From Cellvibrio chitinivorans (GTDB lineage: Bacteria > Pseudomonadota > Gammaproteobacteria > Pseudomonadales > Cellvibrionaceae): a stretch of DNA of 32,000 nucleotides. Positions 1,109-17,986 of the stretch are shown here, one piece after another. The notes below the pieces were generated by a model that saw only the letters and a program-made list of their open reading frames with translations, did not search any database and had not been told where the DNA came from. The position numbers and the translations under genes are program-made. The stretch covers positions 37,749 through 69,748 of the forward strand of contig NZ_JAYKKN010000008.1 of NCBI RefSeq assembly GCF_035117775.1, read 5' to 3'. The number at the start of each line of letters is the position of its first letter. Position 1 is the stretch's first letter.

Positions 1109-2032
1109 ATGATTATGGTACCCCCAAAGGCACCGAGACATTTTCTAACCCTCGCCGATATCAATAGCGCCGAATTACAGCAGATTATTGCGCGCGCCAT
1201 CGAACTCAAAGCCATGCTACGTGCGGGCAAAGCGCCCGAACTGCTCAACAACAAAGTGCTGGCAATGATTTTTGAGAAAAACTCCACCCGCACCCGCGTT
1301 TCTTTTGAATCCGGTGTTGCCAAGCTGGGCGGTCACGCGATCTTCTTATCGACCAAAGACTCGCAACTGGGTCGCGGCGAGCCAATCGAAGATTCTGCAC
1401 GCTGCATTGCCAGCATGGTCGATATGGTGATGATCCGTACCTACGCCCACGACACAGTAGAGCGCTTTGCTGAATACTCGCGAGTTCCGGTGATCAACGG
1501 CCTGACCGATGAATATCATCCATGCCAGTTGCTGGCCGACATCCAAACCTATGTAGAACAACGCGGCTCACTCGCCGGTAAAACCGTTGCATGGGTCGGC
1601 GATGGCAACAACATGTGTAACTCCTATATTCAGGCCGCCGAGCTGTGTGATTTTGAATTGCGCATTGCCACACCCAAAGGTTTTGAGCCGGAAGACGAGT
1701 TTGTCGCACCCTATGCAAACCGAGTCACTCTGACTAATGACCCGCGCGCCGCAGTTGCTGGTGCCGATCTGGTCGTTACTGACACTTGGGCGTCTATGGG
1801 TCAGGAGGATGAAAAGAAGCAGCGCGAGAAAATCTTTGCTGGATATCAGGTAAATAAAGAGCTGATGAACCTTGCCAAGCCAGATGCACTCTTTATGCAC
1901 TGCTTGCCCGCCTATCGCGGCAAAGAAGTAACAGCAGACATTCTCGATGCGCCCGATTCAGTTGTTTGGGAAGAAGCAGAAAACCGCATGCACGCACAAA
2001 ATGCACTCATGGAGTTCCTGTTTAACCAATAA
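1109..2032 (+). CDS. argF: Ornithine carbamoyltransferase
   Basis: The translation carries STRTRVSFE (carbamoyl-phosphate site), HPCQLLAD and HCLPAYRG. At 307 aa the length is typical. The start could be 1109 or 1115 (MIM...). Confidence 0.95.
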
Positions 2033-2074
2033 AGCTCAGACTTGATGTATTAGGTAAGAGACAAAAAATCAAAA

Positions 2075-2108
2075 CCCGCTAATTCCACAGAATTAGCGGG
2101 TTTTTTAT
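2075..2108 (+). terminator. Rho-independent terminator after argF
   Basis: A perfect 10-bp stem, cccgctaatt (2075-2084) with aattagcggg (2091-2100), has a 6-nt loop and is followed by TTTTTT. Confidence 0.85.
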
Positions 2109-2429
2109 TGCGCATCAAAAATGCACACAATAGGGACAACGTTGTCGGTTGCGCACCAGAGCAAAACACACAAAATCACCAAAATATTACACAAAGTAAC
2201 ATCGATTCTGAAAAATGCCCCAAAACCATGCTTTTAATAACATTAAGAAATCTAACTTTGTTTTTATATTCATTATATGAATAAAAACGATCAATTTTTC
2301 CGTTTTTGCGCAAAAACAATCTTAAAAATCGTAACTTAAAGTAACAAAAAGGTAACGTAACATGCCTATAATTCGTCCGTGGGTGCAGTTAAACATTGTT
2401 AGTAAATTTTTCCTTCTGAGGTTTTTATC

Positions 2430-2765
2430 ATGACTAAATCATTTGTTTCTAAAGTTGTTGCTGTTGTATCTCTGGCTAGCCTGTCAACCTTGTCAGTAAT
2501 GGCAAACGCAGAAGCCTTCGCTTCTTACAAAGAAGTTCCAGGCGTAGTATCAAAAGTAGACTCTGTTGAAAACACCATCACTATCACTACCAAAGATGGC
2601 GCAACAAAAACCTTCAACGTAGTAAAAGGTGCAAAAGTAGCTACCTCTAAAGGTCGTGTAATGACTCTGGATTCTTTGGCTAAAGGCGATACCGTTGTGC
2701 TGAAAAACCGTGTTTCTACTCCTGTTGCGAGTGAAGCAAAAGCTCAAGTATTGTCAGCTAAGTAA
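2430..2765 (+). CDS. Small secreted protein of unknown function (111 aa)
   Basis: It has a Sec signal peptide (MTKSFVSKVVAVVSLASLSTLSVMANAEA). GAGG lies upstream of the ATG and a hairpin lies downstream. Codon choice (tct, gct, gtt, cgt, aaa, ttc, atc) differs from neighbouring genes. I recognise no family confidently. Confidence 0.7.
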   Translation: MTKSFVSKVVAVVSLASLSTLSVMANAEAFASYKEVPGVVSKVDSVENTITITTKDGATKTFNVVKGAKVATSKGRVMTLDSLAKGDTVVLKNRVSTPVASEAKAQVLSAK

Positions 2766-2812
2766 TTCGTTTGTGCTGGTTTCTAAATACATAAAAAAGC
2801 TTTGACCACTCA

Positions 2813-2845
2813 ATGAGCCCCGCATGGGGCTTATTGAAATTTTTC
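2813..2845 (+). terminator. Probable terminator of the small secreted-protein gene
   Basis: The hairpin gagcccc-gcat-ggggctt is followed by attgaaattttt. The T-run is separated from the stem, so this call is only moderate. Confidence 0.5.
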
Positions 2846-3034
2846 TCCAATCCCAGCTATTCGGCATCTAATGCCTCTTCTGAATTACAGCCGCAAATAA
2901 TTCTTACTTCTGCATACGTATTCAAACTTTTTCTTTTTCTAATTTCACTTATTCTGATTTCGGAAGTTGTTGTTGCATGCCTGACATGCATACAAACCTA
3001 ATAAACATAATCACTAAAACTTCGGTAAATCACC

Positions 3035-5174: not shown

Positions 5175-6380
5175 TCACACCGTTAAATTAATTTCCTGCA
5201 CCACTCCAACCTTGCCATCTTCAGTTAAATAAACGCCGGAATTGACCACTTCACCGAGCGAATTATTTTGTTCATCCTTTAATTGAAATGATGATGTCAC
5301 ATGCCCCAGAAAAATTGCGCCGATATTTTTATCGCCCAAAGCCATTAGTTGGGTCGAACCATCTTCATTCATCGACCAAATACGCAACTGGTGATAAATG
5401 CTATCGCCCTCGTCGATAAAATTGTTGCCATCTTCATCATAAGCAGCAAGCTCGGCAAAACCGCGGCCACTGCTAGGGCCGAATAGCTCACTGCCGTTAT
5501 TAATACTGCCGTCGCCATTGCGGTCCAACGCCAAATAGCCGCTGCCCGGACGCAAACTGGCGATCTGTTCAGCGGTACCATCTGAATCCAAGTCAAACTC
5601 AAAACGCGTTTGGCTTAGTGCAGCGCCCAAGCCATCGAAATTAATAACCAGCGGATCAACTTTTTTACTGCCTGCTTCAATCTGTAAATTGGACTCCTGT
5701 ACAAACTCGCGGCTCATTTTCATCGCCACCGAAAAATCTATCTCTCGCCCGTCCGCCGTATGCACAACGCCGACAGCCTGAAAGCGCATAGATTCCTGCT
5801 CCTGATAGCGCTCATGGCGTTGATAAATCAACCCGGGGCCAGCACTGCGAACGACCGTCAGTTGTGCGGCAGCCTGCGCCACGGCCGACGATGGAGGCGC
5901 AGTATCCACTGACAAGCTTTCCACCTTGGAGCCCTGTTTTGCACGCAAATCGCCAACACTGGTCACTCTCAACTCCGCTCCGGTGATGGCCTTATACATA
6001 GATTCGATAATGATTTTGTTCAGTCGGGTGCGCGAATCCATAGAGCCCGTCAAATCGAGCGTCTCGCTAATCCTGTACATCGCCAAGAGCGAGCCCGCTT
6101 GCGAGAGATCAACCTCAGGCTCAGGTGGCAATATCACCTCCGCCCTCGTGGGTTCAAGCATCACGGGTTGGTCGCGCCAAAACTCCAACTGTTCGGTCAC
6201 ATGTAGCTCTTCGCGATAATCCCGCTGTGCAGCCATACCAATTTGGGCATTGGAAATAATCATAAAGCCATCCGCTATTGTGAAGATCCATAGAAACCGC
6301 ACGCGCAATAACAGCGAAAAATGCGGGTTAGCCTCTATAGCGGCAAAAATGCTGTTTTTTTGAGCTTTATTTGGCGCCAA
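5175..6380 (-). CDS. Hypothetical protein with a C-terminal DxDxDG-type calcium-binding region; start uncertain
   Basis: The C-terminal half carries DPLVINFDG...FDLDSDGTAE...LDRNGDGSINNGSELFG...YDEDGNNFIDEGD...MNEDGS. This is the Asp/Gly-rich pattern seen next to RTX/VCBS-type calcium-binding proteins. The track start at 6380 is a TTG with no Shine-Dalgarno sequence. The first in-frame ATG is at 6263. Confidence 0.7.
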   Translation of the reverse strand: MAPNKAQKNSIFAAIEANPHFSLLLRVRFLWIFTIADGFMIISNAQIGMAAQRDYREELHVTEQLEFWRDQPVMLEPTRAEVILPPEPEVDLSQAGSLLAMYRISETLDLTGSMDSRTRLNKIIIESMYKAITGAELRVTSVGDLRAKQGSKVESLSVDTAPPSSAVAQAAAQLTVVRSAGPGLIYQRHERYQEQESMRFQAVGVVHTADGREIDFSVAMKMSREFVQESNLQIEAGSKKVDPLVINFDGLGAALSQTRFEFDLDSDGTAEQIASLRPGSGYLALDRNGDGSINNGSELFGPSSGRGFAELAAYDEDGNNFIDEGDSIYHQLRIWSMNEDGSTQLMALGDKNIGAIFLGHVTSSFQLKDEQNNSLGEVVNSGVYLTEDGKVGVVQEINLTV

Positions 6381-6515: not shown

Positions 6516-7307
6516 TTAATTGCGCGCCAGCACCATTTGGTTTTTATAGCGCTGATGCAGGATGTTCACACGGAAAACGTAGGTCTTGGTTTCTTCAAAC
6601 GGAGGGACGCCGCGATACTTTTCTACCGCTCCCGGCCCGGCGTTGTAAGCGGCTGTTGCCATAGTGATGCTGCCATCAAATCGCTTAAGTAAATACGCAA
6701 GGTATTTAACCCCACCCTCAATGTTCTGCGCCGCATTGCTGGTATCACTCACCCCCATATCGCTGGCGGTTCCCGGCATCAGCTGCATCAACCCCATCGC
6801 CCCTTTGCGTGAACGCGCCAGCGGGTTGAAGTTGGATTCAGCATGAATCACCGCGCGTACCAGTGCTGGGTCAACACCATGCCGCTGCGCCGCTTGAGTG
6901 ATTAGATAGGTGAACTCGGTCATATAGAGCTTTACGCCACGCCAATCTACTCGCGACAAGGGATTACAAGCGAAACAAGAGGTGTAGACGATAACTTCGT
7001 AAGCCGCCTTTTTCGGTTGGCGATCAGAAAAGGTCACTGCGCCATCTTTCTGATACTTAAAGAACTTGAAGGGTTGTTTACTGGCCGCCGCTTCAGCCGC
7101 TAATCGCTCCTGCTCACGGCGCGCCTTTTCTTCGGCAGCGGTTTTTTCAGCCACACGGCGCACATGCGCCTCAAAATCCTCAAGGCTGGATTCCTGCGCC
7201 GAAGTTTCAGTCGCGGGTTGCATATTTCCTTCAGCCCATAGCGGAACGCTGGCAAAAGCCAGTAACGAAAGCGCTAGAAATGGGATGATTTTATGCACAG
7301 CAACCAC
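6516..7307 (-). CDS. Lytic murein transglycosylase (SLT domain) with an N-terminal DUF4124-like segment
   Basis: SLT catalytic region: AVIHAESNFNPLARSRKGAMGLMQLMPGTA ... AAYNAGPGAV. The DUF4124-like string is FKYQKDGAVTFSDRQP. There is a signal peptide. The start codon is GTG. Confidence 0.85.
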   Translation of the reverse strand: MVAVHKIIPFLALSLLAFASVPLWAEGNMQPATETSAQESSLEDFEAHVRRVAEKTAAEEKARREQERLAAEAAASKQPFKFFKYQKDGAVTFSDRQPKKAAYEVIVYTSCFACNPLSRVDWRGVKLYMTEFTYLITQAAQRHGVDPALVRAVIHAESNFNPLARSRKGAMGLMQLMPGTASDMGVSDTSNAAQNIEGGVKYLAYLLKRFDGSITMATAAYNAGPGAVEKYRGVPPFEETKTYVFRVNILHQRYKNQMVLARN

Positions 7308-7441
7308 GATTTATTTGTTCAAAAATGGAAACAGGGAGATTTAGTGTAGCCCAGCTTTGTGAAAAGCTCTGTCACCAAAATCCATTTTCGTGACCTTATA
7401 CAACTTATCGAAATAGCGGCCGCAAAGATTCGCTATAAGGC

Positions 7442-7843
7442 TCAGGACTCAAGCCAGACATCCCGCACCCATTGCCAGACGGACGCCCAGGTTTCATCGG
7501 CCAGATCACCATCGCGCCAATAAACCACCTCTCCGTCCGGCTCTACGCAGTAGTAACTGCCGTTCACTTCGCAGATAGGCAACAAATGGCGCGGCACGCC
7601 CATCGCCCAAGCGGTGGCGGTAACTTCGGGTAAATAGGTGTGAGAGTTAGGATCGGCAGCGGTTACCGGCTCGATAGTGCCGTAGACCACATCGCTGGCT
7701 TCCAGCAGAAAGGTGCGTACATCGCGCGGGATGGGCAGAAGAATCTCTTCTTCAATCTCGACCAGTGTGTCTTCATCGGGCAAATCCAGCGGCACTGGCA
7801 CTGGTTCGTTGTGATCGCGCAGGAGTTCGAGTATTTCTTCCAT
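7442..7843 (-). CDS. SMI1/KNR4 (SUKH-1)-like small acidic protein
   Basis: The 133-aa protein has a layout typical of SUKH proteins (LP.P.DVRTFLLE ... LLPICEVNGSYYCVEPDGEVVYW). The family call is from memory of the pattern only. It lies 73 nt downstream of polB on the same strand. Confidence 0.55.
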   Translation of the reverse strand: MEEILELLRDHNEPVPVPLDLPDEDTLVEIEEEILLPIPRDVRTFLLEASDVVYGTIEPVTAADPNSHTYLPEVTATAWAMGVPRHLLPICEVNGSYYCVEPDGEVVYWRDGDLADETWASVWQWVRDVWLES

Positions 7844-7916
7844 CGTAATGCCTGTTAGTGATGACGGGAGGCGGAATATAGCCCGAAGCCCTTATCCATA
7901 ACAAGCGATGCACACA

Positions 7917-10319
7917 TCAGCCAAACAGGGATAACTGGTTCTCCACCAATTGCTCCAGCGACTCATCCATAAAATGCAAAATACTGTCGGCCACTGGCGA
8001 TAGCTGCTTATTAATATAGTGCTGATAATCAATCGGGCTCTGCAGCCAATTCATATGCACCTCGTAAGAACCAACAGGCTCGGGGCCATTGGTAGTGATG
8101 AGATAACTAATCCAGTCGCCGCGCCTTAGGGTTTCGCCAGTCAGCTGCACATATTTGCGCGCAGCCTGCACATGGGGCGGCACATTTTTTTGATATTCAT
8201 GTAGATGGCGACGCAACCGCTTGCGATAAATTAATTCCAAGTCCCGCTTACCGGCGAGCACTTCATCATTAGTGGTGCGCACAAAATCCAGATAGTCTTC
8301 GCCATCAAAAATTTTGCGATAGAGCGCGAGCTGAAAATCCTTGGCCAGTTGCGTCCAATCGGTGCGCACATTCTCCAAACCTTTAAACACCATTTCGCGC
8401 TGGCCATTTTGTTCGATCAATCCGGCGTAGCGTTTCTTCGTACCTAATTCAGAGCCGCGCATGGTCGGCATTAAAAAGCGCAGGTAGTGAGTTTCGTACT
8501 GAATCTCCAATGCGCTTTTGATATTAAATTCGTCGCGCAAGCTTGTTTGCCACCAGCTATTTAATTCTTTTGCCAAACGCGCGCCGATTTTATTGCACAG
8601 TGCCGCATCTTTTGGCGGCTTGCCCACGCAATTATTTTCCAGCCAGACAAAGAGCGAATCTGTATCGCCATAAATAACCGCATAACCCTGCTGCTCAATC
8701 CACTCGCGGCTGCGCTGGATAATTTCATGGCCGCGCAGGGTGATGGAACTGCATACACGTGGATCAAAAAAGCGGCATCCAGTTGAACCGAGCACACCGT
8801 AAAACGAATTCATAATGATTTTGATGGCGTGGGAGAGCGGTGCATTTTTATGTTGCTTGGCGCGGTCGCGCGCAGCCGATAACTGCTCAATCACCTGCGG
8901 TAATATATGTCCATCGCGCGCAAAATAAGCATCATTAAAGCCTTCTACGCGCAGGGCTTCATCCATGTGATTATGTTGCGCCAACCAATAGGCGCAGGGG
9001 TCGATTAAAAAAGTGCGGATGATACTCGGGTACAGACTTTTAAAATCAAGCACTAACACATTGTCGTAAATTCCCGGGCGCGAGTTCATTACATAACCGC
9101 CAGGGCTGATCACATCCGATTCCAACTCACCCAAATTCGGTGCGACATAACCACGCCTGTGCAAGCGCGGCAAATACAAATATTCAAACGCAGCAACCGA
9201 GCCGCCGATGCGATCCAACAGCAAACCGGTTAATTGGCTGCGCTCCATCGCAAACGCGAGCAACTCCTGCTGCACAAAAATATTCCACACCAGTTCGCAG
9301 TCGCGCAGATTGTATTCGGCCAGCGCTTGCTTATCGGTTTTGAACAATTGGGTAATATCATCGCCGCGATCTTTCCCTGCAATAAGTTTTCCTTCGCCCA
9401 ATAATTCCTGTGCGATATTTTGTAGCGAATAACTTTCATAGCGATAATTCGCCGCTTTTAATAATTCGATACCATCCAGTGCAACCCGTCCGGGAATTAC
9501 GACAAAACTGCGCCCGCCATCGCCTTCTTCATGGCGCCAGTGAATGGATTGATTAGCGCGCCCCAATTGCAATTCTATTTTTAAGCGCTGGCAGATATTT
9601 TCCAGCACCAGCAAATCAAATTGCACCAGATTCCAACCGATCAAAATATCCGGGTCAATAGACTGCACAAAATCAAAAAAAGCCAGAAGGCACGTTTTTT
9701 CATCGGCGCAATACACTAACCAATCAGACTGATTGCTACCGCCCTCGCCCACCATAAATACTTTTTTATCGGCATCCCCCCAAACACCAATCGAATAAAG
9801 TTGTTTGGCATCCATCGAGGTTTCAATATCGAGCGAAAGCATGCGCAGCTCAGGTCGCCAATGGCTTTGTGTTTCAGCTAAAGGCGCAAGGCGCGGATTT
9901 ATTAACGGCTGGGCGGGATGAGAAATATTGTCTGCAGGAATATCAAATTGCGCGGCAGCAGTAATAAACCGCTCCATTAAATAACGTTCAGGCGGGCGAA
10001 TATCGCTCTCCCAACAATCAATGCCATGTTGCCGGAAAATATCCTGCGCATCGCGTGCACTGCGTTGGCTGTGAAAATAGAGCGCGTTTACGGATTTATT
10101 CAGAAAGGTTTTTAATTCAACTTCGGCCATGCGCCAGCGACGCAAGTGTTTGATAAGCGTTTGAATCTGCGCTGCATCCTCGCGCAGCACAAAAAACACC
10201 ATTTCCTGCTGCGTGATTTGCGTCCAACAACTGCCCTGCTCCGTCGCCCACCATAAATCAAGCACAATCCCCTCGCGGGTATCGCGCCACTGGCGGGTTA
10301 ATAAAAAGGCATTGGTCAT
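7917..10319 (-). CDS. polB: DNA polymerase II (family B)
   Basis: Family-B motifs are present: DFKSLYPSII, KIIMNSFYGVLG, VIYGDTDSLFV. The N-terminus MTNAFLLTRQWRDT aligns with E. coli PolB MAQAGFILTRHWRDT, so I prefer the ATG at 10319 to the track's start at 10382. Confidence 0.95.
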   Translation of the reverse strand: MTNAFLLTRQWRDTREGIVLDLWWATEQGSCWTQITQQEMVFFVLREDAAQIQTLIKHLRRWRMAEVELKTFLNKSVNALYFHSQRSARDAQDIFRQHGIDCWESDIRPPERYLMERFITAAAQFDIPADNISHPAQPLINPRLAPLAETQSHWRPELRMLSLDIETSMDAKQLYSIGVWGDADKKVFMVGEGGSNQSDWLVYCADEKTCLLAFFDFVQSIDPDILIGWNLVQFDLLVLENICQRLKIELQLGRANQSIHWRHEEGDGGRSFVVIPGRVALDGIELLKAANYRYESYSLQNIAQELLGEGKLIAGKDRGDDITQLFKTDKQALAEYNLRDCELVWNIFVQQELLAFAMERSQLTGLLLDRIGGSVAAFEYLYLPRLHRRGYVAPNLGELESDVISPGGYVMNSRPGIYDNVLVLDFKSLYPSIIRTFLIDPCAYWLAQHNHMDEALRVEGFNDAYFARDGHILPQVIEQLSAARDRAKQHKNAPLSHAIKIIMNSFYGVLGSTGCRFFDPRVCSSITLRGHEIIQRSREWIEQQGYAVIYGDTDSLFVWLENNCVGKPPKDAALCNKIGARLAKELNSWWQTSLRDEFNIKSALEIQYETHYLRFLMPTMRGSELGTKKRYAGLIEQNGQREMVFKGLENVRTDWTQLAKDFQLALYRKIFDGEDYLDFVRTTNDEVLAGKRDLELIYRKRLRRHLHEYQKNVPPHVQAARKYVQLTGETLRRGDWISYLITTNGPEPVGSYEVHMNWLQSPIDYQHYINKQLSPVADSILHFMDESLEQLVENQLSLFG

Positions 10320-10452
10320 GGCGAGGCGACAACATCTGGTTAAGTAACCAGTATTATCCCGCGTAAAACACGCTGGATGCAATCACTCTAAAGGCCAGGT
10401 ATATAATCTATACCTCTTAAGAATCTGACTATTAACTTTTGATCACTCACGA

Positions 10453-11676
10453 ATGAACAAGACTCAAACAAACCCCCGCAATCACAATCACACCCCATCG
10501 GATTTTGAACTTAGCGAAAAAGATCAGCGCAATAATATTTGGCGGCTCACACTCGCCCAAGCTTTGGCTGGGGCAAATGCCGTGGTGGTTTATGCAACCG
10601 GCGCGATTGTCGGGAGCATGTTGGCGCCATCGGCAGTCTTGGCCACCTTGCCGATTTCCATTTTTGTTGTGGGTATGGCGCTATGTATTTTGCCTGCGGG
10701 TGTTATCTCTGAACGCTTTGGTCGTCGCACTACATTTTTAGTGGGAACTAGCGCTGGTGTTTTGGTTGGGTTGCTCTCTATGCTCGCCATGATTAACGCA
10801 TCATTTTGGTTATTTTGTTTTGCGATGCTATTTGGCGGCACCTACGCGGCAGTGGTTTTATCGTTTCGTTTTGCCGCGACCGATGGCGTGCCCGCTGCGC
10901 GTAAACCGCAAGCGCTGTCGCTGGTGATGGCTGGCGGTGTCGCCGCTGGCATTGTGGGGCCGCAATTAGTCACTCACACAATGGAGCTGTGGCCAGCGCA
11001 TTTATACGCAGCAACTTTTTTAATTCAAGCATTGGTTGCTGCGATTTCCGCTGTAATTTTATTTGGTGTGCGCCTGCCAAAACCCTCCCGTACAGATGTT
11101 TCTGGCGGGCGCCCGCTCGCCACTATTATCAAACAACCTGCATTTATTGCAGCGGCGGCCTGCGGCGCTATCTCTTACATGCTGATGAATTTTTTAATGA
11201 CCGCCGCACCTCTGGCGATGCATATGCACGGCCACTCCCACGCCAGTGCCAATTTAGGTTTGCAGTGGCATGTGATCGCAATGTACGCCCCAAGCTTTTT
11301 CACCGGAAAACTCATCAGCCGTTTTGGTGCGATAAAAATAGCTGTATCGGGTTTGCTGTTAACCGCCATATCTACCGTCATTGGGCTTGGCGGTGTAGAC
11401 GTAGCCCACTTTTGGTGGATGCTTATTTTATTAGGTGTAGGTTGGAACTTTGGTTTTCTCGGCGCTTCGGCCTGGGTGCTGGAATGCCACACACCAGAAG
11501 AAAAAAATCGCGTGCAATCATTAAATGATTTTATTGTGTTCGGCCTAATGGCCATCGGCTCATTTTCCTCAGGCGCGATTCTTGGTGTATACGGCTGGAG
11601 TGTTGTGCTGTGGGTTTCCTTTGTACCACTGGCGCTAACCGCTGTGGCATTTGGACTATTGCGAGGGAGAAAATAA
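10453..11676 (+). CDS. MFS transporter
   Basis: The 407-aa protein has about 12 hydrophobic segments. An MFS-like loop, SERFGRRTTFLVG, follows the second TM segment. Confidence 0.85.
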   Translation: MNKTQTNPRNHNHTPSDFELSEKDQRNNIWRLTLAQALAGANAVVVYATGAIVGSMLAPSAVLATLPISIFVVGMALCILPAGVISERFGRRTTFLVGTSAGVLVGLLSMLAMINASFWLFCFAMLFGGTYAAVVLSFRFAATDGVPAARKPQALSLVMAGGVAAGIVGPQLVTHTMELWPAHLYAATFLIQALVAAISAVILFGVRLPKPSRTDVSGGRPLATIIKQPAFIAAAACGAISYMLMNFLMTAAPLAMHMHGHSHASANLGLQWHVIAMYAPSFFTGKLISRFGAIKIAVSGLLLTAISTVIGLGGVDVAHFWWMLILLGVGWNFGFLGASAWVLECHTPEEKNRVQSLNDFIVFGLMAIGSFSSGAILGVYGWSVVLWVSFVPLALTAVAFGLLRGRK

Positions 11677-11687
11677 ATCAGAAATGT

Positions 11688-12038
11688 TTAACTGCGCAGA
11701 ATTTTTTCCATCGCCTTGCCTTTAGCAAGCTCATCAATCAGTTTGTCTAAATAACGGATTTTCTGCATAAGCGGGTCGTCAACCTCCTCCACCCGCACAC
11801 CGCAGACAACACCTTTTATCAGTGCAGCATTGGCGTTAAATGTCGGTGCTTGCGCAAAAAACTCTTCAAATGTTTTCTCCTGCACAATCTGCTCTTGCAA
11901 ACCCGCATGATCGTAACCCGTCAACCAACAAATAATTTGATCAACCTCATCCTGAGTGCGATTTTTCCGCTCAGCCTTATTCACATAAAGCGGATAGACT
12001 TTGCTAAAAGCAGTGGTGAAGATTTTGTGATTGGTCAT
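11688..12038 (-). CDS. DUF2200 domain protein
   Basis: The 116-aa protein reads [34 protein letters not shown] ... [37 protein letters not shown]. This matches the DUF2200 family as I recall it. Confidence 0.8.
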
Positions 12039-12099
12039 AAATTTTTAAGGTTTTTGAAATGTCAGATATCGGTCAAGGCGAATATTTATAAAAAACAAT

Positions 12100-12275
12100 G
12101 TAGGTTCGATTAGCGCAGCGTAATCGTACGAATGCAATTCCCCGCCCGAATTTCCACACAGTTAACCCCGAACCAGTTTGCAGAAAAATTCCAGCTTTAT
12201 TTGTTCGCTATTATCTATTTAATCTTGTTTATAGAATTTTCATACGTACGATTACGCTGCGCTAATCGTACCTAC
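12100..12275. repeat. REP doublet (REPIN/BIME-like): two 35-nt REP-like units in inverted orientation
   Basis: Unit 12100-12134 is gtaggttcgattagcgcagcgtaatcgtacgaatg. The reverse complement of 12241-12275 is gtaggtacgattagcgcagcgtaatcgtacgtatg, a 33/35 match. Each unit has a GTAG head followed by its own hairpin (cgatta...taatcg). The spacer is about 106 nt. Confidence 0.6.
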
Positions 12276-12278
12276 GGG

Positions 12279-13016
12279 CTACAAATCTATACTCAGGCTT
12301 TCTAGTGAAACAACACGACTCATTAAAACTTTTTGCTCAACAACAGAAATATTACCAAGTGCAGCGTGAATGAAATTTATTATATTTGGAATATCGGCAT
12401 CTGACTTTACAAAAATATAACGTATGTCACCTGGCCCAAATTTAATCGTACAATTTTCTTTAGTTAAAGAGTTCTCAATATCCAAATTGTCTTTATTTTC
12501 AAACTTTGACTTTCTTATATATGGCTTAATTTCCTCATGTTGTGGAACATAGCGCCATTCAGATTCTTGATAAAATTCTTTTTCTACAGGAACCCCATCG
12601 ATAACCATTTTCCCACTAGTTGGTTTTGTGTATGCAAGCAAATACCTCATGGTTGTCTTGCATAACTCGATATCTTCACCCTCTAATTTGTTGGAGTGAT
12701 CATTTAGGCCTCTAAACGAATTTGTTAGATTGTTATTTCCTGCGCTATAGAGAATTGGATTCAAACCATTCAGATGACCCCACTGCCTAGTAAGACCTAA
12801 TCCAAACTCACCGTAAAACCCTATATGCTCAGAAATTCTTGATAGCGGAATGTCACAAAAGCAAACCATTGGGTACGCAATATAGTCGAACTTATCGTAT
12901 CCGAGCCAGCTTATGTCTTCTAAACAATAACGAGGCCAAAAGCCATGTTCCAAGATTAATTTCAGAGTTTCTATGTTCTTGGTAAAATGAAAAAGCGTAT
13001 TTGATTTCGGTCGCAT
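12279..13016 (-). CDS. AbiGi-like (abortive-infection family) protein on a low-GC islet, with no AbiGii partner
   Basis: The N-terminus NTLFHFTKNIETLKLILEHGFWPRYCLED and the strings YPMVCFCDIPLSRISEHIGFYGEFGLGLTRQWGHLNGLNPILY match my recollection of the AbiGi (PF10899) pattern. I prefer the ATG at 13016 (GAGGAAATT-ATG) to the track's 13058, which has no Shine-Dalgarno sequence. Two 60-nt samples I counted were 32-33% G+C. Confidence 0.65.
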   Translation of the reverse strand: MRPKSNTLFHFTKNIETLKLILEHGFWPRYCLEDISWLGYDKFDYIAYPMVCFCDIPLSRISEHIGFYGEFGLGLTRQWGHLNGLNPILYSAGNNNLTNSFRGLNDHSNKLEGEDIELCKTTMRYLLAYTKPTSGKMVIDGVPVEKEFYQESEWRYVPQHEEIKPYIRKSKFENKDNLDIENSLTKENCTIKFGPGDIRYIFVKSDADIPNIINFIHAALGNISVVEQKVLMSRVVSLESLSIDL

Positions 13017-13292
13017 AATTTCCTCAAATGTCCTAACTCCGAAGCAGTTTTTCTGCATCCATATTATTTATTTGTTATGAGCTTTTGTAAGCACGGAATT
13101 TTTTAAGTGTTAACCTTGATATTTCCAATGTTCTCCCTCCAATAGCCCTTCAGCTTGTTGATGTTCGCAAGCTCAGCCTGCAAGGCCCGCCGCAACCTAC
13201 GGGTACATTAGCTACGAAAATTCAATTAAAGACTATGAATGAATTTACCGCCAGCCGGAATTACAGGTTATTACCTTGCGATATTTGAGTGG

Positions 13293-13326
13293 AGCAAAAA
13301 AGAAAAGGCGGCACTGTGGCCGCCTT
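13293..13326 (-). terminator. Rho-independent terminator of the amidohydrolase gene
   Basis: The stem aaggcggc (13305-13312) pairs with gccgcctt (13319-13326). On the minus strand it is followed by TTTTCTTTTTT. Confidence 0.8.
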
Positions 13327-13344: not shown

Positions 13345-14724
13345 TTACACTAGGTTTATAAGTGTTTTAACTGATTGCTGTACATCGGCGGTGAGTTTTT
13401 CTATGTCGATTGTGTGTACTTGATTGTTGCTGACAACTGGTTTGCCGTTGATAAAACTGTGCTTGATGGTTACGGGTTCGCCGCAGATTAGCGGTGCTTC
13501 CAGTGGGCTGTGCACTCCGGCGAAACGAGGTTGTTGTAAATCGTAAATAACTAAATCGGCGGCGTAGCCGACCGCTAATTTTCCGAGGTTTTGCAAACCT
13601 AAAATTTGTGCGCCGCTATGACTGCCCCAGTTAATTACCATTTCAACATTGGTTGCCGCAGGGCCATGCTGGCTGCGGTGTAATAGCCACGCGAGATTTA
13701 ATTCCTGCAGCATTGATGCTGATTCTGAAGATGCAGAACCATCGACGCCGATACTAATCGGTACGCCCGCTTGTTGCATGGCAATCACAGGGGCTATGCC
13801 GCTGCCCAAACGGCAATTGGATGTGGGGCAATGGGCGATGCCGGTTTTGGTTTGCGCGAGTAGATCGATTGCATGTGCATCGCTTTTTACCAAGTGCGCA
13901 AACCAAACATCGCTGCCGAGCCAATGACAACTCGCGGCATAATCGATTGCACTCATGCCGTATTTGGTTTGCGCTTGTTGCTCATCAAATTCCACTTCCA
14001 ATAAATGCGAGTGCATTTTCAAACCCTGTGCGCGCGCATATTCAGCGAGCGCGATTAAATCATTGCGGCTTGCTGAGTGAATCAAACTGGTGGGCGCAAC
14101 AACCAATTGGCGCATGGGTACAACGCCATATTGGAGTGAATAATTTGTTTGGTGATACTTACTGCGGCTCTGCTCCAAGCGCGCAATGACCTGCTCCACT
14201 GTTTCAGGTTCGATGCCGCTATCGCGCAAGCCGCGATGGGTGCCGCGCTCGGTGGCGCTGCCCCGACACAATACCAAACGAATTCCCAATTCATCTGCCG
14301 CTTGCCAAAGCGCCGCTTCCACTTCGGGCGATGAGGTCGCGTGATATAAATAATGATGATCTGCGCAAGTAGTTGCGCCCGAGCGCAAGAGTTCATACAA
14401 ACCGAGGCGCGCGGCGTGATACATCAGTTCCGGTGTGATTTTTGGCCAAAACTTATAAGGCACAGAGGCAAGCCAATCGCCCAAGCCCTGATTTAATCCG
14501 GCAGGCACACCTTTTAAAATTGATTGCGCTAAATGGTGATGAGTATTCACCAACCCCGGATAAATGCTACAACCACTGGCATCAATCAGCGTTTCATTTT
14601 GCTGCGGGATAAGCTGCTGGCCGAGCTCAGTAATTACACCATTGCTGATGCGAATGTCGCTGGCTGCCGGATGAGATTGGCTAAAAATTGCGCGGGCATT
14701 TTTAATTAAATAATTCATCTTCAC
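13345..14724 (-). CDS. Amidohydrolase-superfamily deaminase (COG0402), 8-oxoguanine deaminase / chlorohydrolase-like
   Basis: The metal-binding string PGLVNTHHHLAQSILKG sits near the N-terminus, followed by HSHLLE, HCPTSNCRLGSG and GVDGSAS. The overall pattern is close to P. aeruginosa 8-oxoguanine deaminase as I recall it (LPGLVNTHHHFYQTLTR). Confidence 0.8.
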   Translation of the reverse strand: MKMNYLIKNARAIFSQSHPAASDIRISNGVITELGQQLIPQQNETLIDASGCSIYPGLVNTHHHLAQSILKGVPAGLNQGLGDWLASVPYKFWPKITPELMYHAARLGLYELLRSGATTCADHHYLYHATSSPEVEAALWQAADELGIRLVLCRGSATERGTHRGLRDSGIEPETVEQVIARLEQSRSKYHQTNYSLQYGVVPMRQLVVAPTSLIHSASRNDLIALAEYARAQGLKMHSHLLEVEFDEQQAQTKYGMSAIDYAASCHWLGSDVWFAHLVKSDAHAIDLLAQTKTGIAHCPTSNCRLGSGIAPVIAMQQAGVPISIGVDGSASSESASMLQELNLAWLLHRSQHGPAATNVEMVINWGSHSGAQILGLQNLGKLAVGYAADLVIYDLQQPRFAGVHSPLEAPLICGEPVTIKHSFINGKPVVSNNQVHTIDIEKLTADVQQSVKTLINLV

Positions 14725-14764
14725 TCCTGAGTTAAAGGGCGGGAATGTTTCCCGCCGATTTCAA

Positions 14765-14801
14765 GAGCAATGTCCCGAGTTAACTCTGACCGCTTCTACT
14801 C
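14765..14801 (-). promoter_or_regulatory. Candidate riboswitch aptamer copy A (NMT1-motif / xanthine-class candidate) in the amidohydrolase leader
   Basis: The minus-strand sequence is GAGTAGAAGCGGTCAGAGTTAACTCGGGACATTGCTC. It shares its 5' and 3' boxes with copies B and C. It is followed by the hairpin GGCGGGAA-ACA-TTCCCGCC, then AGGAG and the ATG. Confidence 0.6.
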
Positions 14802-15088
14802 TTACTACCTTTATTAATAACATTGAATTTTGCTTACGCCAAGACAATAACAGCATGAGAAAAATAAAATACAATTTGGTGCAAAGCAGAATTTTAAGCG
14901 TATTTTTTTGGTGCAAGAGCAATAAAAAATCTGGCTTTAGGGAAGCAGATATAAATAGAAAATTTATTAAAAACTTCTTATCGCATCTATAGTTAGCCTT
15001 AGCTACGCCATCAGTTTCCGCGGCTGGCATAAGGTTTGCTAAAACTTAAACGAACCCGATATTTTTTGATTTTTGAATATCGGGTATT

Positions 15089-15139
15089 GAGTAGAAGCTG
15101 TTAGGTAACTCTCTTTTACGAGAAACCGGGACATTGCTC
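15089..15139 (+). promoter_or_regulatory. Candidate riboswitch aptamer copy B in the leader of the ABC operon
   Basis: The sequence is GAGTAGAAGCTGTTAGGTAACTCTCTTTTACGAGAAACCGGGACATTGCTC. Its first 10 nt and last 12 nt are identical to copy A. The inner helix changes GAG/CTC to GGT/ACC, which is compensatory. Confidence 0.6.
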
Positions 15140-15305
15140 ATTGTTCATACGTCGCAGCCTTGTGGGCTTATAGCAACGTGTGGCGATGAGATAAGCTTCT
15201 CCCCCGCCACTACCCCTCTGCTATAAAACTCCACTTCAAGCTTCGACCTTACAACATTGATTTTGCGCAGGCATTGCTCTGCGCATCTGTGTAATGGAGA
15301 AAGCG

Positions 15306-16340
15306 ATGAAATTTTCCACCCGGTTTTTCACTCTACTCAGCTTATTTAGCTGTTGTTTTTATGCACACACCAGTTACGCACTCGATAAAGTGGCCTTTCA
15401 ATTGGACTGGCTACCCGGTGGCGATAAAGCCCCTGTGTATGTCGGTGTAGAGCGCGGATTTTTTGCAGCAGAAGGATTGGAAGTCAACATCGCCCAAGGG
15501 CGCGGTTCCAATGATGCCATCAGTAAATTAGCCACCGGCAATGGCGATGTCGGCCTGAGCGATTTGGTTGCGCTCTTGCTCGCCAAAGCGGGGCAAACCG
15601 TTCCGGTCAGTGCCATCTACTCACAATTTAGCAAAGCACCTTACGCATTTTATGTGCTGGATTCATCGCCCGTAAAAACCGTTGCCGATGTAGCCGGTAA
15701 AAAAATTGCAACCTCCGCATTTACCTCCGCCAATATATTTTTGCCACTGCTGTTATCGACAAATGGAGTTGATCAAAACTCGATTCAATTAATTAAAGCC
15801 GACCCTGGTGCGCTCAACCCTATGTTGATTATGGGTAGAACTGATGTAGAGATTTCATGGATCACCGACAGCGTGCGCAATATTCAGCAAGCCAAAAAAG
15901 CGGGGAAAAATTTGCGCATCATTCCCTGGCACGATGCAGGTCTGGAGTTTTATTCAACCTCAGTCATCGCCAGTGATAAATTTTTAAACGAACGCCCCGA
16001 TGTTGCACGCCGCTTTTTACGCGCATACGCCAAAGCTGTTGCCTACACATGGGAACATCCGCTGGAATCTGCACAAGCCGTACACAAGATGGTGCCAGAA
16101 GTAGATGCTACTGAAGCAGAAGCAACCATAAATTCCATTCGCGATTTGGTGGTGAATGAGGTTAGCGCACGCGATGGTTTGGGAGTATTTGAGCCAACAC
16201 GCCTGGCAACCACTTGGGAATGGACAGCCAAAGGGCAGCAATTAGCAGTGGATAGTTTTAACCCGGAAACAGCAATTAAGCGTGATTTTCTAGCGGCGCC
16301 TCGCAGCGAGATTGCCACTGCGGAGGCATCTGCACAATGA
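15306..16340 (+). CDS. ABC transporter substrate-binding protein, NMT1/THI5-like (NitT/TauT family)
   Basis: There is a signal peptide, then FQLDWLPGGDKAPVYVGVERGFFAAEGLEV, typical of NMT1/THI5-like binding proteins. I prefer the ATG at 15306 (GGAGAAAGCG-ATG) to 15294. The stop overlaps the next gene's start (ATGA). Confidence 0.85.
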   Translation: MKFSTRFFTLLSLFSCCFYAHTSYALDKVAFQLDWLPGGDKAPVYVGVERGFFAAEGLEVNIAQGRGSNDAISKLATGNGDVGLSDLVALLLAKAGQTVPVSAIYSQFSKAPYAFYVLDSSPVKTVADVAGKKIATSAFTSANIFLPLLLSTNGVDQNSIQLIKADPGALNPMLIMGRTDVEISWITDSVRNIQQAKKAGKNLRIIPWHDAGLEFYSTSVIASDKFLNERPDVARRFLRAYAKAVAYTWEHPLESAQAVHKMVPEVDATEAEATINSIRDLVVNEVSARDGLGVFEPTRLATTWEWTAKGQQLAVDSFNPETAIKRDFLAAPRSEIATAEASAQ

Positions 16341-17164
16341 AACCTTTTGTCAGTTTTAATCAGGTAGGCCACCGCTATCCACTCGCACAGGGCGGTCACA
16401 TGCAAGCCTTAACCGAGGTCAGTTTCGATATTCATCGGCATGAATTTGTCGCCGTCGTCGGTCCATCCGGTTGTGGTAAATCTACATTGCTGCGTTTACT
16501 CAGCGGACTATTAAGCCCGAGCGAAGGCAAGGTTGAGGTTTTTAATCAGCAAGTGACGCAACCGCGCGACGATGTAGGCATAGTGTTTCAAAAACCAACA
16601 CTGCTGCCGTGGAAATCGGTACTCGATAATGTTCTTTTTCCGCTGCACCACAAATACGGAAAAGTTACCGACAAAGATCGCGCCTACGCCAAACAATTAA
16701 TCAATACTGTTGGCCTGAACGATTTTATTGATCGCCTGCCCGATCAACTTTCTGGCGGTATGCAACAGCGAGTGGGAATTGCGCGCGCACTGTTATTAGA
16801 CCCGGACATTTTAATTATGGATGAACCTTTTTCAGCGCTGGATGCATTAACCCGCGAAGAAATGGGTTTTGAATTACTGCGCATTTGGGAAGAAAAACCC
16901 AAAACCGTTTTATTTATCACTCACTCCATTTCGGAAGCGGTTTTGCTCGCCGATAAGGTATTGGTAATGAGCGCTCGCCCCGGACGCCTGCTGGAACAGA
17001 TTGCTATTGAGCTGCCGCGCCCGCGCAGTTTGGACACAATGCAGATACCCGCTTTTAGCAACTACACCCGCCGTATACGCGCACATATTTACGGGAATAA
17101 TTCCCAGTCACAAACTCAATCACAGCCTCAAGCGGACAAAAGATCGCAAACTCTCGCCGTCTAA
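16337..17164 (+). CDS. ABC transporter ATP-binding protein (NitT/TauT family)
   Basis: Walker A GPSGCGKST, signature LSGGMQQR and Walker B ILIMDEPFSALD are all present. Confidence 0.95.
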   Translation: MKPFVSFNQVGHRYPLAQGGHMQALTEVSFDIHRHEFVAVVGPSGCGKSTLLRLLSGLLSPSEGKVEVFNQQVTQPRDDVGIVFQKPTLLPWKSVLDNVLFPLHHKYGKVTDKDRAYAKQLINTVGLNDFIDRLPDQLSGGMQQRVGIARALLLDPDILIMDEPFSALDALTREEMGFELLRIWEEKPKTVLFITHSISEAVLLADKVLVMSARPGRLLEQIAIELPRPRSLDTMQIPAFSNYTRRIRAHIYGNNSQSQTQSQPQADKRSQTLAV

Positions 17165-17188
17165 CGCTCGCATAATTACCGATTAAAT

Positions 17189-17986
17189 ATGAGAAGCCCA
17201 ATGAAAATACTCTGCTCCCAGTATTTAACGCAACTACAGAAGTTATTGCCCTTGATGGCATTGCTCGCACTGATTCCCTTATGGCAATTGTGTTGTTGGT
17301 TATTTTCGATTCCCGAATTTATTTTGCCATCGCCCAGCACTATCGCTCACGCATTTTTTGAGGTGGACGCAGTGCGTTGGTTGGAACATGCATGGGCCAC
17401 CTTAAAAATTGCTCTCATTGGTTTTGCGCTATCGATAATGTTAAGTATTCCCTTGGCGATAATGATGGTGCGCTCTGCTTTTTTGACGAAGACCTTGTTT
17501 CCGCTATTAATTATTGTGCAGTCCACACCGGTGGTTGCGATTGCACCATTGTTAATTGTAATTCTGGGTGCAGGCGATGCCCCGCGTTTGGCAATTACGT
17601 GTTTAATTACCTTCTTTCCACTTGTGGTTTCTGCCACCACGGGTATGTTGGCTACACCACCAGAATTAATTGAACTTTCCAAATCCCTGCGCGCATCACC
17701 GGTAAAAGAAATTTGGCAGATTCGCCTGCCCTATGCCATCCCACATATTTTTAGCGGACTAAAAGTTGCCATTACCTTAGCGGTAATCGGTGCAGTGATA
17801 GCGGAGTTTGTCGCGGCCGAACAGGGGCTTGGATATTTTGTGCAATTCTCCACGTCGTTTTTTAAAGTGCCGCAAGCCTTTGCCGCTTTGCTTTTATTAT
17901 CGGCGATCAGTCTTTCGCTTTTTGCGCTTGTGCAATGGACCCAAAAAATCTGGTTTGCCTGGAGCTTACCGCGCGACAAAATGTAA
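17189..17986 (+). CDS. ABC transporter permease (NitT/TauT family)
   Basis: The 265-aa protein has about 6 hydrophobic segments and an EAA-like loop (ELSKSLRASPVKEIWQIRLPYAIPHIFSGLK). Confidence 0.85.
   Translation: MRSPMKILCSQYLTQLQKLLPLMALLALIPLWQLCCWLFSIPEFILPSPSTIAHAFFEVDAVRWLEHAWATLKIALIGFALSIMLSIPLAIMMVRSAFLTKTLFPLLIIVQSTPVVAIAPLLIVILGAGDAPRLAITCLITFFPLVVSATTGMLATPPELIELSKSLRASPVKEIWQIRLPYAIPHIFSGLKVAITLAVIGAVIAEFVAAEQGLGYFVQFSTSFFKVPQAFAALLLLSAISLSLFALVQWTQKIWFAWSLPRDKM

What the first reader, a model, noticed from the sequence alone, without database searches (positions are those of the whole stretch)
12279..13203. Low-GC islet with a lone AbiGi-like gene, flanked by REP sequence and a 9-bp direct repeat: candidate single-gene phage-defence insertion
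The 245-259 aa minus-strand gene is strikingly AT-rich. I counted 32% and 33% G+C in two 60-nt samples, against 43-48% in samples from flanking genes.

Its N-terminal half (NTLFHFTKNIETLKLILEHGFWPRYCLED; YPMVCFCDIPLSRISEHIGFYGEFGLGLTRQWGHLNGLNPILY) matches my memory of the AbiGi family. That family normally works with a larger AbiGii partner in Lactococcus. Here no partner ORF of 60 aa or more exists on either side.

The segment is bracketed by ACCTACGGG at 12270-12278, which abuts the stop codon and forms the end of the right REP unit. The same 9-mer recurs at 13195-13203.

The segment sits between conserved-looking chromosomal genes (DUF2200 and the amidohydrolase). This pattern suggests a recently acquired cassette inserted into a REP site.

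How a stand-alone AbiGi-like protein would act is unknown. The C-terminal part of about 130 aa has no motif I recognise.
Basis: partly seen in the sequence, partly recalled or inferred. Interest (0 to 1): 0.65.

Follow-up and report, generated by a model that had tools for sequence, protein, structure and literature searches.

The report
Lone AbiGi-family gene in REP hotspot
A single AT-rich gene of the AbiGi phage-resistance family has been dropped, with no partner gene, into a repeat-rich gap between two housekeeping genes; this partnerless arrangement is common for its branch of the family, so it is a fairly ordinary acquired gene of untested function.

Summary
The minus-strand ORF is real, most likely 245 aa (12279-13016). 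It is the most AT-rich kilobase of the window (36% vs 47% G+C). It is a full-length AbiGi-family protein (Pfam 3.7e-28; PADLOC AbiGi 2.9e-58, end to end). No AbiGii or other partner lies next to it or elsewhere in the 32 kb.

The 9-bp "direct repeat" is not a target-site duplication. It is the shared CCGTAGGT head of two REP-like elements, and the copy at 13195 lies in intergenic DNA conserved in a relative that lacks the gene. The window-specific segment is about 12054/12077-13144. Also, the C-terminal half is not an unknown domain. It is covered by the AbiGi profile and holds the invariant E-x-E-W-R motif.

Being alone is normal for this clade. In 42 related loci no neighbour recurs and no AbiGii was detected. 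Several copies are integron cassettes, and the gene is always more AT-rich than its host. It is under strong purifying selection (dN/dS 0.07).

The most likely reading is a self-sufficient anti-phage gene encoding an ADP-ribosyltransferase-like (DarT/DUF2971-related) enzyme. That mechanism is inferred, not shown. Verdict: new member of a known kind, modest interest.

The parts
12279..13016 (-). AbiGi-family CDS, 245 aa (MRPKSNTLFHFT...SLSIDL). An alternative upstream ATG at 13058 would add 14 non-conserved residues.
   Evidence: ORF. Homologues are 245-246 aa and start at this Met. Pfam AbiGi 3.7e-28; PADLOC AbiGi 2.9e-58, full length. Nucleotide similarity to L001 and L049 starts and stops exactly at these codons. 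dN/dS is 0.07.
13021..13025 (-). Shine-Dalgarno GAGGA, 4 nt before the ATG at 13016
   Evidence: Read directly from the sequence.
13063..13091 (-). Sigma-70-like promoter candidate (CTTACA-17-AATAAT) inside the window-specific segment
   Evidence: Consensus scan (9 of 12 matches). Weak: shuffles give as many sites.
13017..13144 (-). 128-nt upstream leader. It is specific to the window, unrelated to the upstream DNA of any homologue, and absent from relative L047.
12100..12275 (.). REP-like inverted doublet (REPIN- or MITE-like). Two 38-nt arms (12100-12137, 12238-12275) flank a 100-nt spacer. It directly follows the AbiGi stop codon and is followed by a U-run on the minus strand, so it is probably the terminator or mRNA-stabilising hairpin for the gene.
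   Evidence: As RNA it folds at -74.6 kcal/mol, z = -7.8. It is absent from L046, L047 and L048.
12270..12278 (+). First ACCTACGGG copy. It is the head (reverse complement CCCGTAGGT) of the right arm of the REP doublet.
13163..13203 (-). Second REP-like element (CCCGTAGGTTGCGGCGGGCCTTGCAGGCTGAGCTTGCGAAC) containing the second ACCTACGGG copy (13195-13203). It is ancestral intergenic DNA.
   Evidence: Conserved in L047, which lacks AbiGi (34 of 38 REP positions; CCAGTAGGT at the 9-mer). An inverted copy of the same element type sits upstream of DUF2200 in L047 and L046.
13305..13326 (-). Intrinsic terminator of the upstream amidohydrolase gene (8-bp GC-rich stem plus T-run). It isolates AbiGi from read-through.
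   Evidence: Conserved in L047.
12054..13144 (.). Window-specific islet. It is bounded by loss of homology with the 96.9%-identical relative L046 (at 12053) and with L047 (at 12076 and 13145).

Best explanation
The gene is an intact, horizontally acquired, stand-alone member of the AbiGi family (Pfam PF10899). It entered a REP-rich, recombination-prone gap between the amidohydrolase gene and the DUF2200 gene.

I propose that it works as a one-gene anti-phage (abortive-infection-type) module. The protein would be an ADP-ribosyltransferase-like enzyme related to DUF2971 and DarT. On infection it would use NAD+ to modify a nucleic acid or a phage/host factor and so block phage transcription or replication. 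It would need no AbiGii partner. Self-harm would be avoided by a phage-dependent trigger or by target specificity, not by an antitoxin.

- Shown: family membership, intactness, purifying selection, absence of any partner, recent and variable presence at this site, and mobility as a single-gene unit.
- Inferred: the defence role, the ADP-ribosyltransferase chemistry, and the trigger.
For: **Family**
- Pfam and PADLOC AbiGi hits.
- Lactococcal AbiG is an experimentally confirmed Abi system that affects phage RNA synthesis and is triggered by a major tail protein (review PMC13064643).

**Intact and constrained**
- All residues that are at least 90% conserved across 120 sequences (the window protein plus 119 cluster representatives at 31-48% identity to it) are present in the window protein: H10, T12, E33, F53-C54-D55, H64, Y68, Y90, K131, E151, E153, W154, R155, D197, D244.
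- dN/dS is 0.07 against the 87%-identical homologue.
- The AF2 model is confident (pLDDT 89.7, pTM 0.85).

**Stand-alone**
- 42 loci show no recurrent neighbour (blastp clustering).
- Among 124 neighbours no Pfam or PADLOC family occurs in more than 2, and no AbiGii family appears in the listed output.
- Seven selected large flanking ORFs (five downstream, two upstream) and the ORF next to an E. coli plasmid homologue do not hit the AbiGii model, while a streptococcal AbiGii control scores 3.4e-88.
- Copies occur as integron cassettes bounded by attC-like repeats (L041, L007, L042, L035).
- Nucleotide conservation stops exactly at the start and stop codons.

**Foreign and recent**
- The gene is more AT-rich than its flanks in 36 of 36 loci, by 13 points on average.
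- It is absent from this site in L047 and L048. The junction differs in L046, which is 96.9% identical over the adjoining 5 kb.

**Defence neighbourhoods in a subset of loci**
- PD-Lambda-1, SduA, PDC-S65, an OLD-family ATPase, PDC-S15, and restriction-modification or mad genes.

**Enzyme class**
- AbiGi is treated as an ART-superfamily family close to DUF2971 and DarT in PMC12522546.
- 13 of 119 diverse members also hit Pfam DUF2971 (best E 0.0021), and one hits PARP.
- The best Foldseek hits are DarT in the PDB (E 0.46) and a phage PolyVal ART in BFVD (E 0.27).
- hhalign of a 120-sequence AbiGi alignment against a 120-sequence DarT set gives P = 7e-4. It aligns LFHFT..L..IL..G with YHITH.NL..IL..G.
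Against: - No lone AbiGi-family protein has been tested, as far as the searched papers show.
- The ART link from my own tests is weak. Foldseek E-values are above 0.1, hhalign probability is 26% and confined to about 32 N-terminal columns, and the motif II and III assignments are not secure.
- A 2026 review found no PDB fold match for lactococcal AbiGi.
- The window is not a defence island. Every other gene is metabolic or housekeeping.
- The canonical system needs two genes, and the closest homologue (87% identity) is translationally coupled to a 658-aa NACHT-like NTPase. So some members do work with partners.
- Lactococcal AbiGi alone was not toxic in E. coli (PMC3985639). This fits a latent enzyme but fits an inert protein equally well.
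Confidence: 0.5

Rival explanations
1. Orphan module. The gene is the surviving half of a two-component system (AbiGi+AbiGii, or NTPase+AbiGi as in its closest relative). It was transferred without its partner and is inert or only residually active on its own.
For: - Canonical AbiG is a two-gene operon (PMC3985639; streptococcal plasmid example).
- The 87%-identical homologue overlaps by 4 nt the stop of a NACHT-like 658-aa gene in several metagenome contigs.
- Similarity to that locus ends exactly at the AbiGi start codon.
- Two integron copies are frameshifted (L041, L042), so lone copies can decay.
Against: - The ORF is intact with every conserved residue present, and dN/dS is 0.07.
- Most of the 42 loci carry no partner of any recurrent kind, which is hard to reconcile with a non-functional orphan.
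- The 85%-identical homologue P0004 is also unpaired.
- The gene has its own SD, a promoter-like site and a terminator-like hairpin.
Confidence: 0.2
2. Antitoxin or regulator, as the database name says ('abortive infection system antitoxin AbiGi family protein'). It would neutralise a toxin encoded elsewhere.
For: The Pfam and RefSeq names. Lactococcal AbiGi is not toxic in E. coli.
Against: - The 'antitoxin' label is by analogy with AbiE. Dy et al. found no toxicity for either AbiG component and no similarity between AbiG and AbiE.
- No toxin gene lies nearby.
- An invariant set of polar residues (H10, E33, D55, H64, Y68, Y90, K131, E151, E153, R155), together with the DUF2971/DarT affinity, looks like an enzyme active site rather than a binding antitoxin.
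Confidence: 0.07
3. An ART-like enzyme with a role other than phage defence, for example inter-bacterial or host-directed toxicity, or a selfish cassette maintained only by mobility.
For: - Relatives of the fold (DUF2971, Lsan_2474) are predicted effectors in Legionella.
- Many loci lie between housekeeping genes with no defence neighbours.
- No phage record carries a homologue.
Against: - There is no signal peptide or secretion-system context in the window.
- The name-giving member of the family is a validated Abi system.
- Integron cassette arrays and defence-gene neighbourhoods occur in a subset of loci.
Confidence: 0.18

Closest known systems
AbiG (AbiGi + AbiGii) abortive-infection system of Lactococcus plasmid pCI750; Pfam PF10899, PADLOC PDLC02331
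   Same: Homologous over the whole length of AbiGi (PADLOC 2.9e-58, model positions 16-259 of 260). Similar size. AT-rich and mobile.
   Different: - No AbiGii partner.
- It scores only 67.6 bits against the NCBIfam AbiGI equivalog, whose cut-off is 300. It is therefore a distant proteobacterial clade, about 30% identical to a streptococcal AbiGI.
- It is chromosomal, between housekeeping genes, rather than plasmid-borne.
RefSeq 'abortive infection system antitoxin AbiGi family protein', the 245-246-aa group (e.g. Burkholderia stabilis, Shewanella algae, Aliivibrio wodanis, Pseudomonas, Xanthomonas)
   Same: 55-71% identical, same length, same invariant motifs. The homologues examined at genome loci are mostly lone, AT-rich single genes.
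   Different: None of substance. The window gene is another member. Its closest relatives (85-88%) come from metagenomes, one of them cyanobacterium-like and paired with a NACHT-like NTPase.
DarT (ssDNA thymidine ADP-ribosyltransferase toxin of DarTG) and Pfam DUF2971
   Same: - A shared N-terminal motif, hFHhT + L..IL..G (hhalign P = 7e-4).
- DarT is the top, non-significant, PDB fold hit.
- Recurrent weak DUF2971 hits (13 of 119).
- The literature places AbiGi next to these families.
   Different: - No macrodomain (DarG-like) antitoxin.
- The similarity is below significance for the fold as a whole.
- The catalytic motifs are not securely aligned.
- No biochemical data exist.
Integron gene cassettes and REP/REPIN-associated insertion hotspots
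   Same: Homologues occur as single-gene cassettes flanked by attC-like repeats (L041, L007, L042, L035). The window copy sits between REP-like elements in a slot that holds other cargo in relatives.
   Different: The window has no integron integrase and no attC. The REP-like doublet lacks the RYYYAAC/GTTRRRY ends (sequence). No RAYT or transposase gene was noticed among the window's annotated ORFs (one search lists only 25 of 44 families).

Membership tests
AbiGi family (Pfam PF10899 / PADLOC AbiGi) | Significant full-length match to the family profile | tested here: met
   Pfam 99.2 bits against a cut-off of 22.4, E 3.7e-28. PADLOC 195 bits, E 2.9e-58, model positions 16-259 of 260.
AbiGi family (Pfam PF10899 / PADLOC AbiGi) | Conserved family residues intact | tested here: met
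   All positions that are at least 90% conserved in 120 sequences (window protein plus 119 diverse members) are present in the window protein.
Lactococcal AbiGI (NCBIfam NF042957 equivalog) | Score above the equivalog cut-off (300 bits) | tested here: not met
   67.6 bits. It belongs to the same superfamily but is not the same protein.
AbiG two-gene defence system (as defined in PADLOC and DefenseFinder, from memory: AbiGi plus AbiGii required) | An adjacent AbiGii gene (about 400 aa) in the same operon | tested here: not met
   Downstream of the stop codon are the REP doublet and then DUF2200. No ORF of 20 aa or more is a candidate. No AbiGii hit among 27 window ORFs. The positive control, a streptococcal AbiGii, scores 3.4e-88.
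AbiG two-gene defence system | Confers abortive phage resistance | not testable with these tools
   Needs expression and a phage challenge.
ADP-ribosyltransferase superfamily (DarT/DUF2971-like) | Significant sequence or fold similarity to a member with a solved structure | tested here: inconclusive
   PDB profile search: no hit at E up to 10. Foldseek: DarT is top at E 0.46. hhalign: P 7e-4, probability 26%, N-terminal 32 columns only. DUF2971 is hit by 13 of 119 members, best E 0.0021. Published assignment in PMC12522546.
ADP-ribosyltransferase superfamily (DarT/DUF2971-like) | Catalytic triad motifs (H/R, Y/S-x-S, E or E-x-E) | tested here: inconclusive
   Candidates H10, Y68 and E151-x-E153 are 98-100% conserved. 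Only the H10 motif aligns to DarT with any confidence. R29 is not conserved, so the R-S-E assignment in the literature is not obviously met.
ADP-ribosyltransferase superfamily (DarT/DUF2971-like) | NAD+-dependent ADP-ribosylation activity | not testable with these tools
   Biochemistry is required.
Transposon-type insertion with target-site duplication | The direct repeat flanks the inserted DNA exactly, and a single copy is present at the empty site | tested here: not met
   Homology with the AbiGi-less relative L047 continues about 50 nt inside the right-hand 9-mer, to 13145. The left breakpoint is at 12053/12076, about 200 nt outside the left 9-mer. The 9-mer is a REP head also found in L046 and L047. 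There are no terminal inverted repeats at 12279/13194 (sequence).
Integron gene cassette | An attC site (RYYYAAC ... GTTRRRY imperfect palindrome) at the 3' end, within a cassette array | tested here: not met
   Met in homologous loci L041, L007 and L042 but not in the window. The REP doublet lacks the attC core sites, and there is no array or integrase.

The most novel reading that the evidence does not exclude
The roughly 245-aa lone AbiGi clade is a self-contained, antitoxin-free, DarT-like nucleic-acid ADP-ribosyltransferase that gives phage immunity as a single gene. It spreads as a minimal cassette (integron cassettes, REP-flanked islets). If so, the database label 'antitoxin' is wrong, and AbiGi would be the effector of AbiG and of the NACHT-AbiGi pairs.
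Probability: 0.3. Interest if true: 0.6.

Novelty: new member of a known kind. Interest (0 to 1): 0.32.

Why it matters
It gives a clean, minimal example of a very widespread but uncharacterised protein family. The profile search found 3,624 cluster representatives at 50% identity. The gene is intact, under strong constraint, partnerless, and flanked by a defined empty-site comparison.

If lone AbiGi proteins defend cells by themselves, AbiG would be reinterpreted, with AbiGi as the enzyme rather than the antitoxin. Thousands of genes now ignored by PADLOC and DefenseFinder rules, which require AbiGii, would become defence candidates.

The locus also shows that REP-rich intergenic gaps act as swap sites for small accessory cargo.

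Tried and rejected
- **Target-site duplication or MITE-like mobilisation by the 9-mer:** rejected.
- **REP doublet as an attC site:** rejected, because there are no core sites (sequence).
- **C-terminal half as a novel domain:** rejected. The PADLOC profile is full length and the AF2 model is confident throughout.
- **Hidden partner:**
  - small ORFs between the flanking genes: none;
  - AbiGii or NACHT elsewhere in the window: none;
  - a conserved neighbour across 42 loci: none.
- **Exact-sequence look-ups** of the window's AbiGi and DUF2200 proteins found no public contig.
- **PDB sequence-profile search:** no hit.
- **Phage genome collection:** no homologue.
- **Organism name:** not recoverable. 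The gene content (GH10 and GH67 xylan enzymes, CBM20 amylase, about 47% G+C) suggests a Cellvibrio-like gammaproteobacterium, but this is inference only.
- **O'Connor 1996 and 1999 AbiG papers:** not held in the library.

Full report
**1. What is in the sequence**

The minus-strand ORF 12279..13058 exists. All 120 listed homologues are about 245 aa and begin at the residue that matches Met15 of this ORF. A GAGGA Shine-Dalgarno lies 4 nt before that ATG. I therefore take 12279..13016 (245 aa) as the gene.

Its G+C is 0.358 against 0.470 for the rest of the window. GC3 is 0.32 against 0.46-0.52 for five neighbouring genes. The 12-13 kb kilobase is the G+C minimum of the 32 kb.

- DUF2200 at 11688..12038 (Pfam 1.1e-53);
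- an Amidohydro_1 protein at 13345..14724.

The inverted REP-like pair (12100-12137 / 12238-12275; 38 nt, 92% complementary, 100-nt spacer) and the two ACCTACGGG copies are at the stated positions.

**2. Family**

- Pfam PF10899 AbiGi scores 99 bits (E 3.7e-28).
- The PADLOC AbiGi model scores 195 bits (E 2.9e-58) and aligns end to end, model positions 16-259 of 260.
- The NCBIfam equivalog for the lactococcal protein scores only 67.6 bits against a cut-off of 300.

The gene is therefore a distant member of the family, not the lactococcal protein itself.

It carries the most conserved motif of all, F148-Y-x-E151-x-E153-W-R155.

The AlphaFold model is confident throughout (pLDDT 89.7, pTM 0.85).

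**3. The 9-mer and the boundaries**

I recovered three related contigs through the DUF2200 protein.

- *L046* is 96.9% identical to the window over 5 kb (window 12053..7000). It diverges completely 15 nt upstream of DUF2200. Its remaining 102 nt resemble L047, not the window.
- *L047* (82-86% identical) has the same amidohydrolase, its terminator, and the intergenic DNA down to window position 13145. It then carries an AraC / TonB-receptor / PepSY block of 4.9 kb in place of AbiGi. Homology resumes at window 12076.
- *L048* has cytochrome-oxidase genes at this position.

The window-specific segment is therefore about 12054/12077-13144. It consists of the REP doublet, the gene, and a 128-nt leader.

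The right-hand 9-mer (13195-13203) lies inside conserved DNA. It is the head of a second REP-like element, CCCGTAGGTTGCGGCGGGCCTTGCAGGCTGAGCTTGCGAAC. L047 has this element at the same place with CCAGTAGGT. L047 and L046 also have it, inverted, upstream of DUF2200.

The left-hand 9-mer is the head of the right arm of the doublet.

The 'direct repeat' is thus two REP heads in the same orientation, not a target-site duplication. The same 2.2 kb also contains at least eight other exact 9-10-nt repeats.

The slot is a REP-rich hotspot that holds different cargo in different relatives.

**4. Expression signals**

- The amidohydrolase ends with a good intrinsic terminator at 13326-13305.
- A weak sigma-70-like site lies at 13091-13063.
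- On the mRNA strand the REP doublet starts 3 nt after the stop codon. It folds into a long hairpin (-74.6 kcal/mol, z = -7.8) followed by UUGUUUUUU.

The gene therefore looks like an autonomous transcription unit. This is inference.

**5. Is a lone AbiGi unusual? No.**

A profile search finds 3,624 cluster representatives at 50% identity with E up to 1e-3. RefSeq annotates many 245-246-aa proteins of Burkholderia, Shewanella, Aliivibrio, Pseudomonas, Xanthomonas and Vibrio, at 55-71% identity, as 'AbiGi family protein'.

I fetched 41 genome loci and added the closest metagenomic locus. The findings were:
- Blastp clustering of all neighbours within 4.5 kb found no family shared by more than three loci.
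- PADLOC and Pfam scans of 124 neighbours found no family in more than two, and no AbiGii family in the listed output.
- Seven selected large flanking ORFs (five downstream, two upstream) and the ORF next to an E. coli plasmid homologue do not match AbiGii, whereas a streptococcal AbiGii control scores 3.4e-88.
- Many copies sit between housekeeping genes.
- A subset lies next to defence genes: PD-Lambda-1, Shedu SduA, PDC-S65, PDC-S15, an OLD-family ATPase, and restriction-modification or mad genes.
- Four are integron cassettes bounded by attC-like repeats. L041 is an 843-bp single-gene cassette. The others are L007, L042 and L035. Two of these copies are frameshifted.
- The gene is more AT-rich than its flanks in 36 of 36 loci, by 13 points on average.
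- Plasmids carry more distant members (92 records). Phage genomes carry none.

**6. Partners do exist for some members**

The closest homologue (87% aa, 84% nt) overlaps by 4 nt the stop of a 658-aa NACHT-like gene in several metagenome contigs of cyanobacterial appearance.

Nucleotide similarity to the window begins exactly at the ATG and ends at the stop.

The next homologue (85%) is unpaired.

dN/dS between the window gene and the 87% homologue is 0.07, with dS about 0.95. The protein has therefore been under strong constraint, and the transfer between these two lineages is not very recent.

**7. Mechanism**

- *Experimental literature.* It concerns only the lactococcal two-gene system. That system affects phage RNA synthesis and is triggered by a major tail protein. 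A 2026 review found no fold match for either protein.
- *The 'antitoxin' label.* It has no experimental basis. Dy et al. found neither AbiG component toxic in E. coli and found no similarity to AbiE.
- *Published classification.* Computational surveys place AbiGi in the ADP-ribosyltransferase superfamily, close to DUF2971 and DarT.
- *My own tests.* They point the same way but are weak:
  - DarT is the top PDB Foldseek hit at E 0.46.
  - A phage PolyVal ART is second in BFVD at E 0.27.
  - Deep-alignment hhalign against DarT gives P = 7e-4 (probability 26%), but only for the N-terminal motif LFHFT..L..IL..G against YHITH.NL..IL..G.
  - 13 of 119 diverse members also hit Pfam DUF2971, with a best E of 0.0021.
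- *Conserved residues.* H10, Y90, E151, E153, W154 and R155 are invariant. E33, D55, H64, Y68 and K131 are nearly invariant. This pattern is what an active site looks like.

I therefore commit, at moderate confidence, to a single-gene, latent ART-like enzyme that acts on nucleic acid or on a phage/host factor during infection. The defence role and the chemistry are inferred.

**8. Verdict**

The gene is a real, intact, recently placed AbiGi-family gene without a partner. That part of the finding stands.

Partnerless AbiGi genes are common and are already annotated in public genomes. This is a new member of a known kind in a neat context, not a new kind of system. Interest is modest. The open question, what lone AbiGi proteins do, is real but not specific to this locus.

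Noticed in passing
window 14760-14806 (-) and 15084-15144 (+): Two xanthine riboswitch aptamers (Rfam RF03054, 55.6 and 41.5 bits) face outward from one intergenic region. One precedes the amidohydrolase gene (13345..14724) and the other precedes the NMT1-type ABC transporter operon (15294..17986). This suggests a purine-catabolism regulon right next to the islet.
   Followed up: partly
window 2001-3000, ORF 2430..2765 (+): A second low-GC stretch (0.37) holds a 111-aa ORF without any Pfam hit, between the ornithine carbamoyltransferase and amylase genes. It may be another small acquired islet.
   Followed up: no
window 5175..6380 (-): A 400-aa ORF with no Pfam or PADLOC hit. Relatives L047 and L048 carry a 364-aa SPM/DUF8379 protein at the corresponding position.
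   Followed up: no
window 10453..11676 (+); L047, L048: The slot between DUF2200 and DNA polymerase II is also variable. It holds an MFS transporter in the window and in L046, nothing in L047, and an AAA_14/DUF4143 ATPase in L048.
   Followed up: partly
L001 8028-10738 (also L002, L003): A 658-aa NACHT-like NTPase gene overlaps by 4 nt the start of the AbiGi homologue that is 87% identical to the window protein. This is a possible STAND-NTPase + AbiGi two-gene system. PADLOC does not recognise it.
   Followed up: partly
L041 7873-8826; L042 8001-8802; L007 1228-3131; L035: AbiGi homologues occur as integron cassettes bounded by attC-like repeats (TAACAA ... GCGTTAGC). The L041 and L042 copies are frameshifted or split. 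The L007 cassette also holds a 105-aa ORF.
   Followed up: partly
L059 (E. coli plasmid NZ_CP157149.1) 3941-6000: E. coli plasmids of about 111 kb carry a 273-aa AbiGi-family gene, followed 27 nt later by a 403-aa hypothetical protein. That protein has the size of AbiGii but does not match the PADLOC AbiGii model. It may be a very divergent or different partner.
   Followed up: partly
L053-L057 (homologue P0012): A 68%-identical AbiGi is preceded by a 135-aa ORF that matches the C-terminal part of PADLOC candidate PDC-S15. It is followed by an IS element and an OLD-family (AAA_15/AAA_21-TOPRIM) gene, a defence-island setting.
   Followed up: no
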